This document shows, piece by piece, positions 4,379 through 63,987 of a DNA stretch of 64,000 nt (positions are counted from its first letter, which is position 1; each line of letters opens with the position of its first letter). Location of the stretch: NCBI RefSeq assembly GCF_964213995.1, contig NC_135808.1, forward strand, positions 12,834,001-12,898,000. Direction: 5' to 3'. Position numbers and translations under genes: made by a program. The stretch comes from Mustelus asterias (Eukaryota). The notes beneath the pieces are model-generated. The model saw only the letters and a program-made list of their open reading frames with translations. It made no database searches and was not told the DNA's origin.

Positions 4379-5125
4379 GGAGATAGGAATCTTATTTCTT
4401 TCATTTACAGCAGCTTTTACCTGTCATTGAAAATAAACTGCTTCTAACTCTGGAGATATCGCAAACTTATGCAGGCTTTTAACTTTAGGTGGTTAACTTT
4501 GATAGCTAACGATAAAATGGATTCCTTTACTCCCCCTTGATCTTGCTCTCTGATATCTCTACCCAAGCCATGCTCATTATCCAGACAGTAAAGACGATTC
4601 CCCAGCTGTGCTCGCCCCAAAACTGGAGAATCCCGCCCGAGATCAGTGGACCTTTGCGTGGTCTGTCCCCGCCCGCTACAATTCCCATGGCGGGCGTGAT
4701 GAGAGAATTCCCCCAAAATTCTGCCGACATTGTATGTCACAGCTTCCACATACTAAATACATGGTTTAATTCGCAGCTGTAATTTCTCCTCATTGTACTT
4801 ACTATATATAATCCGCATTTATATATGGGAACAGATACCATTACACACATGCTTAATACTTATTCATTCAAATTTTATATTTCCATGACTTAGAGTATAT
4901 TCAGTTTCATAAACAGAATTATTCTGAATGTGGACTGTTAAGAAACACCAGCTTATTATTACATTGGTAATGTTGATTTTTTTTGTGGCCCATATTTTTA
5001 TTTATTTCCAATTTATTATTTTCAACCTGCCTTCTCATTAATGCTTTAGGTACATCGCATACTTCACCATGCCATCCCTACTGGGAGGGCAAGGTTCAAA
5101 TGAATTGATTTGGAAATAGACCCTT

Positions 5126-5609: not shown

Positions 5610-5940
5610 TAGAATCATAGAATTCCTACAGTGTAGAAGGAGGCCATTCGGCCCATCAAGTCTGCACCGACCCCAATCCCACCCAACCCCTGTCCCCGTA
5701 GCCACATGTATTTACCCTGCTAGCCCCTCTGACACTGAGTGGTAATTTTAGCATGGCCAAACAACCTGACCCCGCACATCTTTGGACTGAGGGAGGAAAC
5801 CAGAGCACCCAGAGGAAACCTACGCAGACACGGGGAGAACATGCAAACTCCACACATACAGTGACCCAAGCTGGGAATTGAACCCGGATCCGTGGCACTG
5901 TGAGGCAGCTGTGCTAACCACTGTGCCGCCGTGCTGCCCT
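5610..5940 (-). mobile_element. HE1-type V-SINE
   Basis: Same consensus. Confidence 0.9.
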
Positions 5941-8831: not shown

Positions 8832-9206
8832 CAATTCTGCAGCTGGAGACGGGCTGGACTGTTAACACAAACTTGGCCATCTCTGTTCCTGTTGAGTGGC
8901 TAATGGATAATTCATAAATCCCGCTATCGTTAAGCTGCAAATACTTCAGCAGCAATGAAGCATTCTCTGGGAAAAAAACGGTCCGAAGTCTGTAGTCATC
9001 TCGAACAGACTGGCGGTAATTGCATTCAGTGAGCTTGTTGCCTGTCTTCGACAGGCATCTATATTCCACAATTCTAGTCTTGGCTTTGAGCCATTTGATC
9101 CTGAGGTACCCGTCTGAGTTTGAGACCGTGTAAGAGGCGGATAGGAGCACGGACTGGCCAACAGTTCCATTCAGACTGTTCTGATTCACCTTCAGTGTTA
9201 CAGCGG
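8832..9206 (-). CDS. Gene A exon 2: Ig V-set domain, HEPACAM/CD2/CEACAM-like
   Basis: Acceptor ctccatctttag|CC and donor ATTG|GTAGGT, 375 nt, phase 1-1. Motifs NGTVGQSVLLSASY, RIKW, NASLLLKYLQLNDSGIYELSIS and FVLTV resemble the HEPACAM N-domain. Confidence 0.9.
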
Positions 9207-9348
9207 CTAAAGATGGAGATAATAGTTTCTTTAAAAGAAAAGTGACAATATATAGAATTACATTGTTTAAACTATTGCATATAAGCAATTGATTAATTGA
9301 TAAATAATTAATAAAAATTCATTGCATCTTACATATTTTAATGTGAAA

Positions 9349-31605: not shown

Positions 31606-31818
31606 AAACTTATTTGTTGGACTAACAAGAGAACACATCATCGCAACACTATTACTCTTGCCATATATAATTACCAACATCCAAAACATTTAATTACAAG
31701 TCTGCCTTTGCTGCGGTTTCGTTTGCCAAATGAAATGAGTAATACATGCTGAGTTGTTTACTTTAACACGGCCAATTAATTTCCTTACACTTTGATGGTT
31801 GTTACATCATTAGAACGG

Positions 31819-32375
31819 ACACGGGCTCCCGAGACTGCCCTTTCTGTGGCCTTGTGGAGTCCGTGGACCATGTCTACGTTCTGTGTTTTAGGCTGCACAC
31901 CCTTTTTGGTTTCCTCAAACACCTTTTACTGATGTTTTGTTTGCACTTCAGTCCCACGCTCCTGATCTACGGGCACCTGGTGCGGAGAAGGGCGGGTTGG
32001 GATGCCGACCTCCTCGTGAACCTGCTCCTGGGCCTGGCGAGACACGCCATCAATAGGTCCAGGCAGCGGGCGATCGATGGGGCTGTCCATCCCGACTGTC
32101 TGCCCCTCTACAGCGGCTACATTCGCGGCCAGGTGTCTCTGGAGAGGGAGTATGCAGTGTCCACGGGCGCGGTTGATGCCTTCCGCGACCGCTGGGCACC
32201 GCAGGGGCTGGGGTGTATTATCGACCCCGATAATCACCTTTTGGTTTGATGTTTTAAGTTTCCTTTCGACTTTGTTTTTGGTTCGGGCTGTTCCCCCTTT
32301 CTTTTGGGGAGCTGCCCCTTTTAATTTGTCCCTAAGTTAATTTGAGTTCGTTTACTTGATTGGTATCAAAAGAAA
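31819..32375 (+). mobile_element. Tx1-clade LINE 3' fragment
   Basis: CPFCGLVESVDHVYVLC zinc finger, C-terminal FRDRWAP, T-rich 3'UTR; 16-bp TSD TACATCATTAGAACGG at 31803-31818 and 32376-32391. Confidence 0.85.
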
Positions 32376-34082: not shown

Positions 34083-34579
34083 CTACGGAACAAAAGAGAA
34101 AAAGGTGTCAGGAACAGCTGAATAGAAGAGTCCCAGAAAACCCATTGCTGCAGTGAGTTTTCACCACGGTGAACAGATGTCTTCCTATTCAGACTCTCAC
34201 CTTGTCGCTTCAACAATCTCTATTTTTCTGACCCTTACTGTTTCCAGGCACGGTGGCACAGTGGTTAGTGCTGCTGCCTCACAGCGCTGGGGACCCAGGT
34301 TCAATTCCTGGTTTGGGTCACTGTCTGTGTGGAGTTTGCACATTCTCCCTGTGTCTGCGTGGGTTTCCTCCGGGTGGTCCGGTTTGCTCCCACAGTCCAA
34401 AGGTGTGCGGGTTCGGTGGATTGACCATGCTAAATTCCCACTTAGTGTCAGGGGACTAGCTGGGGTAAATGCATGGGGTTATGGGGATAGGGCCACAATA
34501 GGATTGTGGTTGGTGCAGACTTGATGGGCCGAATGGCCTCCTTTTGCACTGGAGGATTCTATGATTCTTTTCACTACAG

Positions 34580-40723: not shown

Positions 40724-43700
40724 TGATGCACCTCAATGAGCACCCGGAAACAAGGCTTTAGAACTGAAGGCTTTAATACATTAACAATGAAACTACTAAC
40801 ACAAATTCACCCGTTCAGACTGAAGGGGTCCTGCCGGAGCAGGGGGTCTTATACCCTGCCACCGGAGGCGGGACCCCACTGGAGTGTGCCATGATAACAC
40901 TTGGGACAGGTAAACACCCTATCCCAACAACATAGTACAACCCCCATAACAACAACAATAACAACCCCAGTGGTGAACCAACGATGGTTCACCACATTCA
41001 CCCCTCCTTTAGGAACCAAAGGTGGCGGGGTGGATGAAAACAGACAATGACAAAAAAAATAACAGGATTCACAAGTCCAGACGGTCTGGAGGACCACACC
41101 GACGCTGCGATCTTCTCAACACCGGTTGCGAAACCGGAGCAGGTGCTTGCGGTGGCTCTCTCAAAGCAACATCTGGCTGTCCCCTCAAAGACTCCCGGGC
41201 CGGCCGGCCCTGATGAGGCGATGGTGTAGGGGATCCTGGAACGTTTGGTGGTGGTGGTGGTGGTGATGATGGTGGCGCCGATCTCCGAGTCTCAGGCAAG
41301 CTGTACATGGGAGTAAAAGTGTTATGCACTGGTCCCGGTGCTGACCGCGCCACGTCTGGGGAAGTAATGAGGAGTAGTGGATCTGTGACTGGGGGAATAG
41401 GAGCGACAGGAGTTGCTACGTCCCCTGCGGGCGCCAGGTCTCTAATGGAGACAGTGTCCTCTCGCCCGTCAGGATATGCCACATAGGCATACTGAGGGTT
41501 GGCGTGGAGGAGTTGGACCGGTTCGACCAAGGGGTCGGACTTGCGAGCCCTCACATGGCGCCGCAGAAGGACGGGTCCTGGGTACGTCAACCAGGCTGGC
41601 AATGAGGTCCCCGAGGACGACTTCCGAGGGAATGAGAACATCCTCTCGTGGGGAGTAGCATTGGTTGCCGTACACAGGAGGGAGCGGATAGAATGGAGCG
41701 CAGTTGGAAGGACCTCCTGCCACCGGGAGACTGGAAGGCCCTTGGATTTCAGTGCCAGTAGGACAGCCTTCCAGACTGTAGCATTCTCCCTTTCCACCTG
41801 TCCGTTACCCCTAGGGTTGTAGCTCGTGGTTCTACTAGAGGCAATCCCGAATGAGAGCAGGAATTGCCTCAAGTCGTTGCTCATGAACGACGAGCCCCTG
41901 TCGCTATGAATATAGCAGGGGTACCCGAACAGGGTAAAAAGCTCACTGAATGCCTTGATGACGGTGGCAGTCGACGTGTCCGCACAGGGGAAAACAAACG
42001 GAAACCGGGAAAATTCGTCTATTATGTTAAGAAAATAGACATTCCGATCCGTTGAGGGAAGGGGGCCCTTAAAATCTACACTCAGCCTCTCAAAAGGGCG
42101 AGTGGCCTTGACCAAATGTGCCCGGTCTGGTCGATAAAAGTGTGGTTTGCATTCTGCGCAAATCCGACAACTTCTAGTAACTGACCTGACCTCCTCCACC
42201 GAGTAGGGTAGGTTGCGGGCTTTTATGAAGTGGTAGAGTCTGGTGACTCCAGGATGACACAGATCATTGTGGAGAGCCTTCAAGCGGTCCTCCTGCATGA
42301 TGGCGCATGTTCCGCGCGAGAGGGCATCCGAGGGCTCATTGAGCTTCCCTGGACGATACATAATATCGTAATTATAGGTGGAGAGCTCAATTCTCCACCG
42401 CAAGATCTTATCGTTCTTGATCTTGCCCCTCTGCGTGTTACTGAACATAAACGCCACGGATCGTTGATCCGTGATCAGGGTGAACCGCTTACCTGCCAGG
42501 TAATGGCGCCAGTGTCTGACTGCCTCCACAATGGCCTGAGCCTCCTTTTCCACCGCTGAGTGCCGAATCTCTGGGCCTTGAAGGGTGCGGGAAAAAAACG
42601 CGACGGGCCTGCCTGCCTGGTTTAGTGTGGCGGCTAGGGCGAAGTCCAATGCATCACTCTCCACCTGGAAAGGGATGGATTCATCCACCGCGTGCATCGT
42701 GGCTTTCGAGATGTCGCTTTTCAAAACCTTGAAGGCCAATTGGGCCTCCGGCGTAAGTGGGAAGGTCGTGGACTTAATGAGCGGACGAGCTTTGTCCGCG
42801 TAGTTGGGGACCCACTGTGCACAATACGAAAAGAACCCGAGGCATCTCCTCAGTGCTTTCGTGCTAGCGGGCAAGGGAAGTTCAGTGAGTGGGCGCATAC
42901 GGTCTGGATCAGGGCCAATGACCCCGTTTTCCACCACGTATCCGAGGATGGCTAACCTACGCGTACGGAATACGCACTTTTCCCTGTTATAGGTCAGATT
43001 CAGGCGAGATGCAGTGCGTAGAAAGTGTTGGAGATTCGTGTCGTGGTCCTGCTGGTCATGGCCGCAGATGGTGACGTTATCCAGGTACGGGAAGGTAGCC
43101 CGCAACCCGTTCTGGTCCACCATTCGGTCCATAGCACGCTGGAAGACCGAGACCCCATTGGTGACACCAAATGGAACCCTGAGGAATTGGTATAGACGAC
43201 CATCCGCCTCAAAAGCCGTATATTGTCGGTCCTCTGGGCGGATGGGGAGTTGATGGTAGGCGGACTTAAGGTCTATGGTAGAAAACACTCGGTACTGCGC
43301 AATCTGATTGACCATATCAGAAATGCGCGGGAGAGGATACGCATCCAGCTGCGTGTATCTATTAATGGTCTGACTATAGTCGATGACCATCCGAGGTTTG
43401 TTCCCGCTTTTGACTACCACGACCTGCGCTCTCCACGGACTAGCACTGGCCTGTATGATCCCTTCCTTGAGGAGCCGCTGAACCTCAGATCTAATAAAGA
43501 TCCGGTCCTCAGCGCTGTAACGCCTACTTTTAGTAGCGATGGGCTTGCAGCCAGGTACCAGATTTTTAAAAAGGGATGGTGTCGTGATCTTCAGGGTGGA
43601 TAGATTGCACGCGGGGCGTTTTGGGCAATTTGGAGGCTGCGGCTGGCTCCCTACGGCCAGTGAAGGGAGTGGCCCACCGTACTGTAGGATCACACTCTTC

Positions 43701-45401
43701 ATGTGGACCATAAAATTTAGTCCGAGGAGAATTGGCGCGCAAAGGTGAGGTAACACAAGGAGCCTGTATTGCTCGTAAACTGTGCCCTGTACCTCAAGAG
43801 TTACCATACATCGTCCTTGGATCGGTACAGACCGGGACTGTGATGCCATGGAAATTGTCTGCTTGGCAGGGAGAACCCGGAGTCCACACCTTTTAGCAGT
43901 TTCAGGGTGTATGAAACTTTCGGTGCTCCCACTGTCAAACAGACAATTTACAGTTCTGCCACTAACCTTTACCTCCATCATGGAATGTTCCAGTCTGTAA
44001 TGCCTGGTCTGATCCAGAGAGATCGACGCCACCGTTGGCCCCTGGGTGTCACTGCATGCTGCCGATGTGGATGCTGAGGACCCCTGCTGGTCGCTGCTGC
44101 ATGCTGCCGATGTGGATGCTGAGGACCCCTGCTGGTCGCTCCTAGTCGTCGTGGACCATGATGGCCGCCCCCATGAATCGCATGTGGCCGAGGGCTCCAA
44201 GCGCAGCGACTCCTGGTGGTCTTCCTCCTCCTCTGTTTGCCACGATGGCGCCGTCCTGAGATCGCACGTGGTCGGACCTCGTGGGTACTGCGACGCCGAA
44301 GGAGATTGTCTCCGTTCTGGAGGGTTACAAGCTGCACTGCCGTTTTTAGGTTTGGACCTGCAGACTTTGCCGTAGTGGCCTTTTTTACCGCACTGGCTGC
44401 AGATTGCCGTTCTTGCCGGACACTGCTGCCGTGGATGCTTGGCCCCACCGCAAAAATAGCATCGCTGGCCCCCTGGAGCTGCCGCCGTCGTCGAATCGAT
44501 CTGGGAGCGCGGGTTCGCGGGGCGAGGAGGGAGCAGAGCTTGCTCCAACCACGTTGACTGCACGTGGTCCTCGGGGTACAGCGCCAAGCTCTTCGACGCC
44601 GCCTCCAACCTCACGGCCATCCCCATTGCCTGGGTCAAGTTGAGTTTCCCCTTTTCTAATAATTTAAGTCTGATGTACGAGGACCCTACCCCTGCTACGA
44701 ACGCATCTCGGGCGAGGTCTTGCATGTACTGCTCGGCGGAGACGTCCTTACAGTCACAACCCCTGGCAAGCTGCAGGAGTTCATTGGCGTAGTCTTCTAT
44801 GGTCTCGCCCGACTGCCGACGTCGTGTAGCGAGGAGATAACGAGCGTGAATCTCGTTGGGTGGCGTAATGTACCTATTCTTTAGGAGCTCGACGGCACCC
44901 TGGTAAGTGGAAGCTGCACGAATGGCTAGGTAAATCGTGTCGCTTACCCTTGCGTGGAGGACCTGGAGTCTATCACTGTCTGTAGTGATAGCTACCGAGG
45001 CTGCCAGGTAGTCCTCAAAGCACTTCCACCAATGTTCGAACGTGTTAGCTGCACCGACCGCACGTGGGTCCAGTGTCAGACGATCCGGTTTTAGGATCTG
45101 TTCCATATTCTCAGTTAATGTATTAAATTGATGCACCTCAATGAGCACCCGGAAACAAGGCTTTAGAACTGAAGGCTTTAATACATTAACAATGAAACTA
45201 CTAACACAAATTCACCCGTTCAGACTGAAGGGGTCCTGCCGGAGCAGGGGGTCTTATACCCTGCCACCGGAGGCGGGACCCCACTGGAGTGTGCCATGAT
45301 AACACTTGGGACAGGTAAACACCCTATCCCAACAACATAGTACAACCCCCATAACAACAACAATAACAACCCCAGTGGTGAACCAACGATGGTTCACCAC
45401 A
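40724..45401 (-). mobile_element. Full-length Ty3/Gypsy LTR retrotransposon
   Basis: 273-bp TG...CA LTRs at 40724-40996 and 45129-45401 (identical by eye), TSD GAGGT (40719-40723 and 45402-45406), PPT AAAGGAGGGGTGAA at 41010-40997, single gag-pol ORF. Confidence 0.97.
41069..45106 (-). CDS. Gypsy Gag-Pol polyprotein (two CCHC knuckles, protease, RT, RNase H, integrase), about 1345 aa
   Basis: ATG at 45106 (MEQILKP); CYFCGGAKHPRQQC, CSQCGKKGHYGKVC, LFDSGS, YLDN, ESDAL/EKEA/TDQ, HHCC, VDFKG-SDRG-VERE. Confidence 0.95.
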   Translation of the reverse strand: MEQILKPDRLTLDPRAVGAANTFEHWWKCFEDYLAASVAITTDSDRLQVLHARVSDTIYLAIRAASTYQGAVELLKNRYITPPNEIHARYLLATRRRQSGETIEDYANELLQLARGCDCKDVSAEQYMQDLARDAFVAGVGSSYIRLKLLEKGKLNLTQAMGMAVRLEAASKSLALYPEDHVQSTWLEQALLPPRPANPRSQIDSTTAAAPGGQRCYFCGGAKHPRQQCPARTAICSQCGKKGHYGKVCRSKPKNGSAACNPPERRQSPSASQYPRGPTTCDLRTAPSWQTEEEEDHQESLRLEPSATCDSWGRPSWSTTTRSDQQGSSASTSAACSSDQQGSSASTSAACSDTQGPTVASISLDQTRHYRLEHSMMEVKVSGRTVNCLFDSGSTESFIHPETAKRCGLRVLPAKQTISMASQSRSVPIQGRCMVTLEVQGTVYEQYRLLVLPHLCAPILLGLNFMVHMKSVILQYGGPLPSLAVGSQPQPPNCPKRPACNLSTLKITTPSLFKNLVPGCKPIATKSRRYSAEDRIFIRSEVQRLLKEGIIQASASPWRAQVVVVKSGNKPRMVIDYSQTINRYTQLDAYPLPRISDMVNQIAQYRVFSTIDLKSAYHQLPIRPEDRQYTAFEADGRLYQFLRVPFGVTNGVSVFQRAMDRMVDQNGLRATFPYLDNVTICGHDQQDHDTNLQHFLRTASRLNLTYNREKCVFRTRRLAILGYVVENGVIGPDPDRMRPLTELPLPASTKALRRCLGFFSYCAQWVPNYADKARPLIKSTTFPLTPEAQLAFKVLKSDISKATMHAVDESIPFQVESDALDFALAATLNQAGRPVAFFSRTLQGPEIRHSAVEKEAQAIVEAVRHWRHYLAGKRFTLITDQRSVAFMFSNTQRGKIKNDKILRWRIELSTYNYDIMYRPGKLNEPSDALSRGTCAIMQEDRLKALHNDLCHPGVTRLYHFIKARNLPYSVEEVRSVTRSCRICAECKPHFYRPDRAHLVKATRPFERLSVDFKGPLPSTDRNVYFLNIIDEFSRFPFVFPCADTSTATVIKAFSELFTLFGYPCYIHSDRGSSFMSNDLRQFLLSFGIASSRTTSYNPRGNGQVERENATVWKAVLLALKSKGLPVSRWQEVLPTALHSIRSLLCTATNATPHERMFSFPRKSSSGTSLPAWLTYPGPVLLRRHVRARKSDPLVEPVQLLHANPQYAYVAYPDGREDTVSIRDLAPAGDVATPVAPIPPVTDPLLLITSPDVARSAPGPVHNTFTPMYSLPETRRSAPPSSPPPPPPNVPGSPTPSPHQGRPARESLRGQPDVALREPPQAPAPVSQPVLRRSQRRCGPPDRLDL

Positions 45402-48438: not shown

Positions 48439-49499
48439 CTGTTGGTGGTGAACATACAAATACAATGAGTTGTATCAATGACAGAATGAACTGAGCAAGG
48501 GTTTTTCAAAGAAAAGATTATTAAAATAGCAGCCCATAAATTCTTTCAAACACAAAACAAGTTGTCCTTTAATTTTTGCCATTTAGTGTGTCTATGTTTT
48601 AAGTTTTTTTACGTTTTATTTATTACTGTCACGAGTAGGCATTAACACCGCAATGAAGTTGCTGTGAAAATCCCCTAGTCGCCACACCCCATCTCCTGCT
48701 CTGGTACACTGAGGGAGAATTTAGCACGGCCAATCCACCTAACCAGCACATCTTTCAGACTATGGAAGGAAACCGGAGCACCCGGAGGAAATCTAGGCAG
48801 ACGCAGGGAGAATGTGTAGACTCCGCAAAAACAGTGACCCAAGCCAGGAGTTGAATCCAGGTCCCTGGCATTGTGAGGCAACAGTGCTAACCACTGTGCC
48901 ACCGTGCCGCCCAGTTTAACAGGTCATATGAAATTCCCTTCTCCATTATATTTATTAGCCTAGTTATTTCAATCCCTCAGCTAAAGTAGCAAATTAATTT
49001 CACAGAAACTGTTAAGAGATGAGCATCATTTCCATGCTTGAGGATATCGTGCTTTGGTCTTAGGGTCAGCAACTGGGGTGGCACAGTGGTTAGCACTGCT
49101 GTCTCACAATGCCAAGGACCCAGGTTCAATTCTAACCTTGGGTGACAGTCTGTGTGGAGTTTGCACATCCTCCCTGTGTCTGCGTAGGTTTCCTCTGGGT
49201 GCTCTGGTTTCCTCCCACAGTCCAAAGATGTACAGGTTAGGTGGACCGGCCATGCTAAATTGTCCCTTCGTGTCACAAGATGTGTAGGTTAGGGGGATTA
49301 GTGGGATAAATTGGTGGGGTTACGGCAGGAGTTTGAGCCTGGGAAAGAGTTGGTGCAGACCCGATGAGCCGAATGGCCTCCTTCTGTACTGTAAGGATTG
49401 TATGGTTCCATAATTGGCAAACAGTTAAAAGAAGCGATTGTGGCAAGAAAAAGTGGACATGGCTGACTGGTCATGTGCTGTACAAAGACATGTAAAATA

Positions 49500-50625
49500 T
49501 AAACATAAACTCTTCAATGATGAAGAATATTCCACCACTTGTTGAATGTATATTGAATATGTACTTCATATAATGACTTTTGGGATACCTGATGATGTTA
49601 GTTACCCAAATATGGATTGGGTTAATGATAGGGTGATGGCTAAGGAGTGGGAGGAATATCTGAACTACGTTCTGGAGAACTTCCTTGATCTGCAGGTACT
49701 CAGCCCAACTAGAAAGGAGGCATTGCTGAATGCAATGATGGGAAATGAGGTACATCAAGTAGACTAGGGGTGGGATTTTCTGGCCATGCTCGCCTGAAGA
49801 CCAGAAAATCCCACCAGTGGTCAAAGGACCTTTGCATGGTCCGCCCCCTGCCCGCTACGATTCCCTTGGCAGGCGGGAAGGGAAAATTCCTCCCTAAGTG
49901 TCTGTGAGGGAACACTTGGGTAAGAATGATTATATTATAAGGTTCTTGCCTTTCACATTATAAGGCTTTCATATCACATGACTATCATATCTTAAGGCTT
50001 CTTGGCCTTTTGGCTAGATCAAGCATCAGATCAAGCCAAGAAGTGGTGCAGTGCCTTATCTTGTCAGCTTGGATCTTGTTTTCCTCTCTTGTGGAGACCA
50101 TGAGTCGGATTCAATTGGAATTGGAATTTGGTTTTTGGAGCAAGCAAGGAATGGATTTCGGTCTGCCAGGTCCACTCTGAGCATTGGGTTTGGAACTTTA
50201 AGAATGGAGTAAAAAAACTTTTAAAAGACTATCATATCATTAGGTTTCGTTTAGTAATGGTGAAGGGCAAGAAGCAATCGAAGATAATATTTCTAAATTG
50301 GAACTTCAATGTGATGAGAAGGGATCTAGACAGGATAGAATGGAACCAGGAACTGACAGGAAACATTGCAATGGAACAGTGGGTGATCTTTAAGGAAGAG
50401 GTGTTTGAGATGTACAGGGTAAGAACATTCTGACAAGGAGGAAAAGGTGCAGGCGTGAAAAACAGGACTCCATGGATGATGAAGGAGATAGAGATGTCAA
50501 AACAAGAAAAGTGGGTGTACCATGTGTGTCAAGTGAATTCTTCAAGTGGAAACAAAATCAAGTACAACAGATTAAGGGGGGATGTGAGGAGGGAAATAAG
50601 ACTGGAAAAGAGAGAATGAGAATAG
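49500..50625 (+). mobile_element. Highly degraded CR1 ORF2 (endonuclease/tether region), interrupted by a MITE and the U2-derived insert
   Basis: YPNMDW, PTRKEALL and MGNE..QV remnants. Confidence 0.6.
49997..50226 (+). mobile_element. U2 snRNA-derived retroposed element (SINE-like or processed pseudogene)
   Basis: GCTTCTTGGCCTTTTGGCTAGATCAAG matches the U2 5' end; GGTTTTTGGAGCA and GTCCACTC..GCAT match the U2 Sm site and 3' region; A-rich tail; direct repeat GACTATCATATC at 49980-49991 and 50227-50238. Confidence 0.8.
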
Positions 50626-50756
50626 GATGGCAGTCAAGGGGGGGTGGGGGGGAGAAAGAGGCAGGGGAGAGGGAGGTGGTGAGTGGCATGGAGAGAGGTT
50701 CAAAGTTCAACAGGGGTCCTGGGGTTCAATTGGGAACCAAGGCCTGAAGGTCGCTG

Positions 50757-63671: not shown

Positions 63672-63987
63672 ATAGCACAGTGGTTAGCACTGCTGCCTCA
63701 CAGTTCCAGGGACCTGAGTTCAATTCCAGCCTTGGGTGAGTGCCTGTGTGAAATTTGCACGTTCTCCCCATGTCTGCGTGGGTTTCCTCCGGGTGCTCCG
63801 GTTTCCTCCCACACTCTAAAAGATGTGCGGGTTAGGTTAATTGGCCATGCTAAAATTGCCCCATAGTGTCAGGGGGATTAGCAGGGTAAAAACATGGGGT
63901 TACGGTGGGCAATAGGGTCAGGGTGGAATTGTGGTCGGTGCAGACTCGACGGGCCAAATGGCCTCCTCCTGCACTGTAGGGATTCTA
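63672..63987 (+). mobile_element. HE1-type V-SINE
   Basis: Same consensus. Confidence 0.92.

What the first reader, a model, noticed from the sequence alone, without database searches (positions are those of the whole stretch)
49980..50238. U2 snRNA-derived retroelement with TSD and A-tail: possible shark SINEU-like family
Seen: a roughly 230-bp insert collinear with U2 (5' stem, Sm-site region, 3' stem remnant). It is remodelled: AGATCAAGC is duplicated, the GTAGTA branch-pairing motif is lost and extra internal sequence is present. It ends in an A-rich tail and is flanked by a direct repeat of at least 12 bp. Known: U1/U2-derived SINEs (SINEU) are described from crocodilians, whereas ordinary U2 retrocopies are typically truncated rather than remodelled. 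Inference: the remodelling suggests a master element that amplified as a SINE independently in sharks, or a variant U2 gene.
Basis: partly seen in the sequence, partly recalled or inferred. Interest (0 to 1): 0.7.

Follow-up and report, generated by a model that had tools for sequence, protein, structure and literature searches.

The report
Shark retroposon family built from U2
This is one old copy of a short jumping-gene family, made from a remodelled U2 splicing RNA, that appears to be present in thousands of copies in several shark species; I found such elements described in print only from crocodilians.

Summary
A 235-base insert (49992-50226) between exact 12-base target-site repeats sits in a decayed CR1 LINE of a shark genome. 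It is collinear with nearly all of U2 snRNA but carries two internal insertions, a changed branch-point-pairing hexamer and a changed Sm site. It is not a lone pseudogene. Contigs of four shark-like species laid at 80% likeness pile up on it at roughly 2,000-10,000 times single-copy depth and stop at its ends. A true U2 gene is too distant (55% over the body) to make that pile. The AGATCAAGC duplication is a family trait in all four species, and an unrelated contig holds a second copy with the same spacer and Sm change. The insertion is shared at the orthologous site in all four species, so it is old. Family letters repair six of six stem positions, so the master RNA was folded, including a new hairpin over the branch-point region. 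Best reading: an independently born SINEU-like family moved by an L1/Tx1-type LINE. Not shown: other copies' TSDs, the partner LINE, transcription, and whether the source was several SINE masters or one variant U2 gene.

The parts
49980..49991 (+). 5' target-site duplication (12 bases exact; may extend about 6 bases into the junction with one gap and one mismatch)
49992..50226 (+). whole insert: U2-derived retroposon copy with A-rich tail
49997..50023 (+). U2 head, U2 nt 4-31 (stem-loop I); this copy lacks one A that 46-76% of laid depth carries behind 50015
   Evidence: table 4
50024..50044 (+). insertion 1 with the second AGATCAAGC (50028-50036); 5' arm of a new hairpin; GATCAAGCC at 50029 fits the Pol III B-box pattern
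   Evidence: table 7, 25, 32, 41
50028..50076 (+). predicted hairpin absent from U2; 16 of 18 pairs in this copy, 18 of 18 with family-majority letters; the branch-point-pairing remnant sits at its tip
   Evidence: this copy alone z -1.42, 19 of 200 shuffles as good
50048..50053 (+). degenerate branch-point recognition hexamer (U2 nt 33-38); the family majority at 50051 moves it further from U2
50082..50098 (+). stem-loop IIb equivalent (4 of 6 pairs here, 6 of 6 with majority letters)
50099..50124 (+). insertion 2: GAATT-type micro-repeat spacer before the Sm site; shared with copy P0046
50131..50138 (+). Sm-site remnant with A>G at its first position; the same change is in P0046 and in one contig table 5c
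50148..50178 (+). stem-loop III equivalent (11 of 12 pairs here, 12 of 12 with majority letters)
50181..50210 (+). shortened stem-loop IV equivalent (outer stem 5 of 6 pairs, 4 of them G-U; inner stem 3 of 3 with majority letters); register set by hand from the U2 alignment
50211..50226 (+). A-rich tail (A7, CTTTT, A4); other copies' pieces end at 50213-50226; no likeness to LINE 3' ends in the window
   Evidence: table 8, 68
50227..50238 (+). 3' target-site duplication, continuing in frame into CR1 ORF2
49928..49954 (+). decayed duplicate of the target site plus the first ~17 bases of the U2 head (5'-junction duplication or earlier abortive insertion)
   Evidence: 1 of 7086 window tiles scores as high
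49594..49761 (+). host: decayed CR1 LINE ORF2 (endonuclease region), left part
   Evidence: tblastn E 2e-8 against a CR1 ORF of the window
50224..50613 (+). host: decayed CR1 LINE ORF2, right part
   Evidence: tblastn E 6e-11
49768..49894 (.). unrelated MITE-like palindromic high-copy element in the same CR1 (served as a multi-copy positive control)

Best explanation
A copy of a dispersed, non-autonomous retroposon family (SINEU-like) that arose in sharks from a U2 snRNA gene, independently of crocodilian SINEU. Shown: a multi-copy dispersed family with shared remodelling, an A-rich 3' end, a 12-base TSD at this locus, and an insertion older than the split of four species. Inferred steps: (1) A full-length U2 copy gained two insertions, lost its branch-point pairing and Sm consensus, and became a master. 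(2) Its folded RNA was transcribed, most likely by Pol II from an upstream promoter, because T4 and T5 runs stay inside it. (3) It was reverse-transcribed at chromosomal nicks by a LINE that needs no matching 3' tail, probably L1/Tx1 clade. (4) More than one source copy was active, since a tandemly duplicated hairpin variant recurs. This copy is a dead, decayed member.
For: Depth 110k-208k over 50033-50196 against 19.9 on unique flank in X1; 46k-83k vs 9.5 (X3), 16k-33k vs ~6.5 (X13), 28k-52k vs ~9.3 (X14); back to CR1 background (30-148) after 50237 (ratios). A canonical U2 is 55% identical over 50045-50198 with gaps, at best 70% over any 40 columns, so it cannot lay at 80%. Loose-end consensus carries the duplicated motif in 4 of 4 runs (126-180 contigs per row). 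At 12 of 12 listed positions in 50033-50196 one other letter holds 83-98% of depth in all four runs. Long single-copy-depth contigs carry the element between unrelated flanks (e.g. X1 record 4: 163 of 1850 letters; X14 record 20: 201 of 1611). P0046, an ORF on an unrelated 926-base contig, is a second copy beside a different repeat, matching 4 of 4 informative majority codons plus spacer and Sm change. Orthologous junction contigs: X3 record 26, X13 record 15, X14 records 17 and 24. Majority letters restore pairing at 6 of 6 stem positions. 6 of 12 rows shown in table 5c go back from 50079-50081 to 50036-50061, read as a shared hairpin duplication. An L1/Tx1-like ORF end is in the window (lead only).
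Against: Only this copy's TSD was seen. The tool warns that summed contig depth is no copy number. Tables show only the best-supported rows (40 shown, 171 hidden; 15 joints shown, 159 hidden), which favours high majority shares. Depth over the U2 head (49992-50032) is 40-70 times lower than over the body, so most copies may be 5'-truncated, or human-like U2 contigs were filtered out; these cannot be told apart. The U2 reference is not a shark U2. The target lacks the TT/AAAA L1 consensus (recalled). No partner LINE was identified. This copy folds no better than shuffles (z -1.09, 31 of 200). Stem registers were partly chosen by hand. No empty orthologous site was seen among the joints shown.
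Confidence: 0.65

Rival explanations
1. Processed pseudogenes of a single host gene: a shark-specific, U2-derived variant snRNA or structured non-coding RNA with its own snRNA-type promoter, whose RNA was repeatedly retroposed (master-gene model, as recalled for BC1/ID). The copies never propagated themselves.
For: Full U2 collinearity with no foreign body or LINE tail. Stem-loops I, IIb, III and IV can still form in the family. Copies are very uniform (majority share 0.90-0.95). snRNA genes have no internal promoter, so dispersed copies should be silent (Kojima 2015, PMC4494074). Kojima 2020 (PMC7245038, Discussion) withholds SINE status from full-length 7SL-plus-polyA families for this reason.
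Against: The Sm-site A and the branch-point hexamer are changed in the family, which a working snRNA should not tolerate (established U2 biology). CpG count 2 against 10 in U2, with C>T the commonest change, suggests time spent as methylated DNA (this copy only). Recurrent structural variants suggest several sources (tables 4, 5c).
Confidence: 0.25
2. The pile-up comes from the U2-derived 5' head of a longer element (a Tx1 LINE or composite SINE), or partly from tandem arrays, and this locus is only a fragment.
For: Crocodilian Tx1-11_Crp has a U2 head (PMC4494074). A head-to-tail joint 50217 to 50045 occurs in 2 contigs of X1. Loose ends behind the 3' end are among the 2427 rows not shown.
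Against: This copy is bounded by an exact TSD directly after its A-tail. The listed pieces end at the tail and lie in long contigs of single-copy depth; only 6-19% of laid records run on unlike. P0046 has a different neighbour.
Confidence: 0.07
3. An ordinary, independently decayed U2 processed pseudogene.
For: Full-length snRNA retrocopies with A-tail and TSD are known (PMC4494074, Discussion). No second copy lies in this 64-kb window.
Against: Thousands-fold depth at 80% likeness where U2 itself is 55-70% alike; shared insertions in four species and in P0046. One copy per 64 kb is not expected for a few thousand copies in a multi-gigabase genome (inference).
Confidence: 0.03

Closest known systems
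SINEU-3 of crocodilians (Kojima 2015, PMC4494074; parts 1-4 of 5 read, figures and supplements not seen)
   Same: Made only of U2 sequence plus an A-tail; the U2 head breaks at about nt 32; structural change shared among copies; internal T-runs; copy number of the same order (about 1,600 there); no LINE-derived tail identified.
   Different: SINEU-3 deleted about 50 internal bases and has about 40 non-U2 3' bases. The shark element keeps the U2 frame to about nt 184 and has insertions instead, so neither derives simply from the other (inference; sequences not compared). SINEU-3 targets Mariner-N4_AMi; this copy is in a CR1, and the pile-up does not extend into its flanks. The paper found no SINEU outside crocodilians.
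SINEU-1 and SINEU-2 (same paper)
   Same: snRNA-derived heads, partial internal duplications, tandem insertions around a TSD, TSDs of about 10 bases.
   Different: They are chimeric (U1+U2, or U2 head plus a non-snRNA body); no U1 or foreign body is seen here.
U2 retropseudogenes, tailless and A-tailed (Noll et al. 2015, PMC5322556, passages and section 19 read; PMC4494074 Discussion)
   Same: U2 origin and TSD.
   Different: They are independent copies of canonical U2, often 3'-truncated and tailless; here the copies share non-U2 insertions.
P7SL_Cpo / P7SL_MD and monomeric Alu (as discussed in Kojima 2020, PMC7245038, Discussion read)
   Same: A whole small RNA plus an A-tail; the same question of SINE versus retrocopy set; the RNA's working domain is lost while the fold is kept.
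   Different: 7SL origin with an internal Pol III promoter; P7SL lacks shared internal changes, which this family has.
Known chondrichthyan SINEs: CmiSINE, SacSINE1 (PMC5499810, passages read); HE1 (recalled)
   Same: Same host group.
   Different: tRNA-type heads (partly recalled); 'snRNA' occurs 0 times in PMC5499810.

Membership tests
SINEU (class of snRNA-headed SINEs) | 5' head derived from U1 or U2 snRNA | tested here: met
   U2 nt 4-31 at 49997-50023, 0 of 500 shuffles; head plus duplication in the family loose-end consensus
SINEU (class of snRNA-headed SINEs) | short (<500 bases), non-coding, with 3' A-tail | tested here: met
   235 bases, A-rich tail; the tail is A7-CTTTT-A4 rather than pure poly(A); longest open frame 62 codons, no protein relatives except another copy
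SINEU (class of snRNA-headed SINEs) | many dispersed copies sharing a structural change from the snRNA gene | tested here: met
   copy number only as an order of magnitude from contig depth
SINEU (class of snRNA-headed SINEs) | independent insertions with their own target-site alterations | tested here: inconclusive
   TSD seen at this locus only; different flanks for other copies, but their junction letters are not available
SINEU (class of snRNA-headed SINEs) | more than one master copy (subfamilies) | tested here: inconclusive
   recurrent hairpin duplication in 6 of 12 rows shown of table 5c; minority indels at 50015 and 50035; no copy phylogeny possible
SINEU (class of snRNA-headed SINEs) | mobilised by Tx1-clade LINEs | not testable with these tools
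   only a zf-RVT-type ORF end in the window (lead; Pfam scan gave no significant family for it)
SINEU-3 family proper | shared ~50-base internal deletion of U2 and unique 3' 40 bases | tested here: not met
   U2 nt 33-87 is retained (6 of 500 shuffles) and the changes are insertions
SINEU-3 family proper | insertion into Mariner-N4_AMi; crocodilian host | tested here: not met
   host sequence is CR1; the genome is a shark's (best identity 76% to Scyliorhinus canicula; one search lists a shark metagenome)
Classical Pol III SINE | internal A and B boxes and no internal terminator | tested here: inconclusive
   B-box pattern match at 50029; no A-box match in this copy; T4 at 50008, 50079 and T5 at 50132 (box patterns recalled)
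Functional U2 snRNA (Rfam RF00004) | gathering score 46 bits; intact branch-point hexamer and Sm site | tested here: not met
   20.9 bits; both motifs changed

The most novel reading that the evidence does not exclude
The family's source was not a passive U2 copy but a remodelled RNA under selection. Either it is a shark-specific structured non-coding RNA gene that may still exist, or it is a SINE whose 22-base insertion did two jobs: it locked the branch-point-pairing region into a hairpin, making the RNA harmless to splicing, and it created a Pol III B box that gave a Pol II snRNA an internal promoter. With SINEU-3, which deleted the same region, this would point to a rule that U2 becomes a SINE only after its intron-reading part is disarmed.
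Probability: 0.15. Interest if true: 0.85.

Novelty: new variant of a known kind. Interest (0 to 1): 0.62.

Why it matters
snRNA-derived SINEs were described from crocodilians alone (PMC4494074), and how they are transcribed without an internal promoter was left open there. A second vertebrate origin, with a different architecture and thousands of copies across several shark species, would show that U2 becomes a SINE repeatedly. It would allow a comparative test of which U2 parts must be lost (branch-point pairing, Sm site) or kept (stem-loops). It also offers presence/absence markers for shark phylogeny, and it warns that such copies could be mis-annotated as U2 pseudogenes.

Tried and rejected
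No genome is held for the window, so no genome-wide BLAST was possible. No second copy in the window by blastn and no Rfam hit at the site in the whole-window scan. The diagnostic motif found 0 matches in viral contigs. Its 29 matches in prokaryote genomes are motif-only: 0 of 29 extend beyond 31 letters. The metagenome scan gave one canonical U2 gene and no family copy. No RNA holder listed; this says nothing about expression. Protein searches on the element's frames found only P0046 and nothing on the minus frame. The element's 3' 51 bases resemble none of six LINE 3' regions tested (scores 12-22; tile mean 15.0, best 33, self 102), so no LINE-derived tail is supported. The ACEA_U3 Rfam hit at 49463-49665 (22.9 bits, gathering 55) overlaps CR1 coding remnant and was rejected as chance. 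The bacterial promoter scan is irrelevant here. A claim of compensatory change in stem IIb was dropped: position 50095 differs among copies and no shark U2 was available. Literature: 10 searches listed no paper on a shark U2-derived SINE; Repbase, Dfam, SINEBase and most subscription journals were not searchable, and the supplements of PMC4494074 were not opened.

Full report
Observation. The sequence at 49980-50238 is as described. An exact 12-base direct repeat stands at 49980-49991 and 50227-50238; 0 of 3180 comparable tile pairs in the window share a 12-mer. Between the repeats lie 235 bases ending in an A-rich tail. Rfam gives the insert a weak U2 match over the whole model (20.9 bits, E 0.22, gathering 46). 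For a real reference I fetched a canonical U2 gene (L001; 190.7 bits; not a shark gene). Against it the insert is collinear from U2 nt 4 to at least nt 169, and by hand to about nt 184. The head, Sm region, stem-loop III, nt 33-90 and nt 91-191 are matched or beaten by 0, 1, 5, 6 and 0 of 500 shuffles, whereas nt 33-66, IIb and IV alone are not significant (102, 32, 448 of 500). There are two insertions, about 22 bases after nt 31 (holding the second AGATCAAGC) and about 28 bases before the Sm site. The branch-point hexamer is changed rather than deleted, and the Sm site's first A is G.

Setting. Both flanks are one decayed CR1 ORF2 (tblastn E 6e-11 and 2e-8), also split by a palindromic MITE-like element at about 49768-49894. 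Just upstream, about 49928-49954 is a decayed repeat of the target site plus the first U2 bases (1 of 7086 tiles scores as high); I cannot say whether it is a junction duplication or an earlier abortive insertion. The genome is a shark's: an Ig V-set exon of the window is closest by identity to Scyliorhinus canicula (76%), then other sharks (63-71%), rays (48-59%) and tetrapods.

Is it a family? No assembly is held and the window has no second copy, so I laid public contigs. Of 18 runs listed I laid 4, from four organisms (X1, X3, X13, X14), on 49500-50700 at 80% likeness. Summed depth over 50033-50196 is 110k-208k in X1 against 19.9 on unique flank, and 46k-83k, 16k-33k and 28k-52k in the others against about 9.5, 6.5 and 9.3 (the last two taken from single-copy contigs). 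That is about 2,400-10,400 times, like the MITE control and far above the CR1 flanks. It falls to background after 50237. The tool warns that depth is no copy number, so I read this only as thousands. Canonical U2 cannot cause it: it is 55% identical over 50045-50198 including gaps and at best 70% over 40 columns. The loose-end consensus before 50036 or 50045 carries the duplicated motif in all four runs. At the 12 positions listed within 50033-50196, one other letter holds 83-98% of depth in each run, so the other copies agree with one another and this copy's letters are private decay. Five of these positions lie in stretches U2 does not have. Only the best-supported 40 of 211 rows are shown, which favours high shares. 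Long contigs of single-copy depth carry the element between non-matching flanks, so the copies are dispersed. An independent check came from proteins: of 1.84 billion representatives one, P0046, matched the element's open frame (E 8e-11). It is a spurious ORF on a 926-base contig whose first half matches the window's abundant short repeat and whose second half is another copy of the element. It has the majority-predicted residue at 4 of 4 informative codons, the spacer, and the Sm-site G.

Age. Contigs bridge the 5' junction in X3 (record 26) and X14 (record 17), and the 3' junction in X13 (record 15; 34 differences in 524) and X14 (record 24; 54 differences and 25 gaps in 639). The insertion therefore predates the split of these species. 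No joint among the 15 shown (159 hidden) skips the insert, so no empty site was seen. Depth over the U2 head is 40-70 times lower than over the body. This may be 5' truncation, alignment breaks at this copy's own deletions, or the tool's filter on human-like contigs; these cannot be separated.

Structure. This copy folds no better than shuffles (z -1.09; sub-regions z -0.23 to -1.42). But of the 12 majority letters, the 6 that fall in predicted stems all restore a pair that this copy has broken: a new hairpin 50028-50076 (16 to 18 of 18), IIb (4 to 6 of 6), III (11 to 12 of 12) and inner IV (2 to 3 of 3); the product of chances is 0.0055, with registers partly set by hand. The other 6 lie in loops or the spacer. 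So the master was more structured than this copy. For the U2 stems that may be simple inheritance. The hairpin is new: insertion 1 pairs with U2 nt 42-62-derived sequence and puts the branch-point remnant at its tip. It could be selected, or merely the trace of an inverted duplication.

Mechanism. The A-tail, 12-base TSD and absence of a LINE-like 3' end fit target-primed reverse transcription by a LINE that accepts A-tailed RNAs, L1/Tx1 rather than CR1 (established knowledge; inference here). An ORF end at 31767-32246 resembles zf-RVT-bearing clusters (13-38% of members; recognition value below the tool's threshold; no significant Pfam hit), a lead that such LINEs are in this genome. Internal T4 and T5 runs argue against Pol III, as Kojima argued for SINEU, so transcription from an outside Pol II promoter is my default (about 75%). 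The duplicated motif does match the B-box pattern at 50029 (patterns recalled), but given the U2 motif only one further base must fit, so this is weak. Six of 12 rows shown in table 5c (80 hidden) run back from 50079-50081 to 50036-50061 with letters like the hairpin's start. I read this as a subfamily with a duplicated hairpin, which suggests more than one source copy.

Comparison. Kojima 2015 (PMC4494074; main text read, figures and supplements not seen) describes SINEU only from crocodilians. SINEU-3 is a U2 with a shared ~50-base deletion after nt 32, about 1,600 copies, targeted to Mariner-N4_AMi and moved by Tx1-Mar. The shark element works like it but fails membership of SINEU-3: it has insertions rather than the deletion, another host and another target. 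It meets the class features I could test. Kojima 2020 (PMC7245038; passages and Discussion read) sets the bar between a SINE and a set of retrocopies: shared internal changes separate the two, and these are present here, but one variant host gene as sole source is not excluded. I also read passages of PMC5381603 and PMC5499810, and passages plus section 19 of PMC5322556; none of what I saw mentions a shark snRNA-derived SINE. Ten searches listed none; other hits were seen as listings only. Repbase, Dfam and SINEBase could not be searched, so a deposited consensus may exist. Earlier notes of this scan hold no look-alike sequence and nothing on this genome, but list unchecked U2-headed candidates in other genomes, one of them an arthropod's; these are leads only.

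Verdict. A real, old copy of a high-copy U2-derived retroposon family in sharks: a new variant of a known kind, most likely an independent origin. Interest 0.62.

Noticed in passing
window 49768-49894: Palindromic MITE-like element at about 10,000 times single-copy depth in X1, with AT-rich heterogeneous flanks in four species; a 77% copy lies at 4609-4714.
   Followed up: partly
window 49928-49979: The CR1 target sequence appears three times around the insert; the first repeat carries a decayed start of the U2 head, followed by a further partial repeat. Orthologous contigs in X3 and X14 cover this stretch.
   Followed up: partly
window 50037-50180: One reading frame stays open to the same stop in this copy and in P0046, and codes for a hydrophobic stretch; letters table 5c suggest an ATG near 50046 in other copies, giving a possible 44-codon frame. 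Probably incidental.
   Followed up: no
window 50211-50226: The tail is A7-CTTTT-A4, and 5 of the 32 listed pieces end exactly at 50226; it may be a family 3' end, perhaps a remnant of the snRNA 3' box (consensus recalled).
   Followed up: no
window 50217 to 50045 (table 5): A head-to-tail joint in 2 contigs of X1 suggests tandem copies at a few loci, as reported for SINEU-3.
   Followed up: no
window 8842-9216 (-): Ig V-set exon of an uncharacterised gene family (A33/HEPACAM/CEACAM-like names) with several paralogues in sharks and rays.
   Followed up: partly
window 41069-45211 (-): A 1380-codon open gag-pol frame of an LTR retrotransposon (protease, RT, RNase H, integrase by Pfam) inserted into a CR1 element; apparently young.
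   Followed up: partly
window 31767-32370 (+): 3' end of an L1/Tx1-like LINE (zf-RVT-like ORF end); candidate for the kind of LINE that moved the U2 element.
   Followed up: partly
window, about 25-30 places, e.g. 5610-5934, 34248-34568, 63675-63987: An abundant ~330-base repeat at 70-85% identity between copies, probably the HE1-type tRNA SINE of sharks (name recalled, not tested).
   Followed up: no
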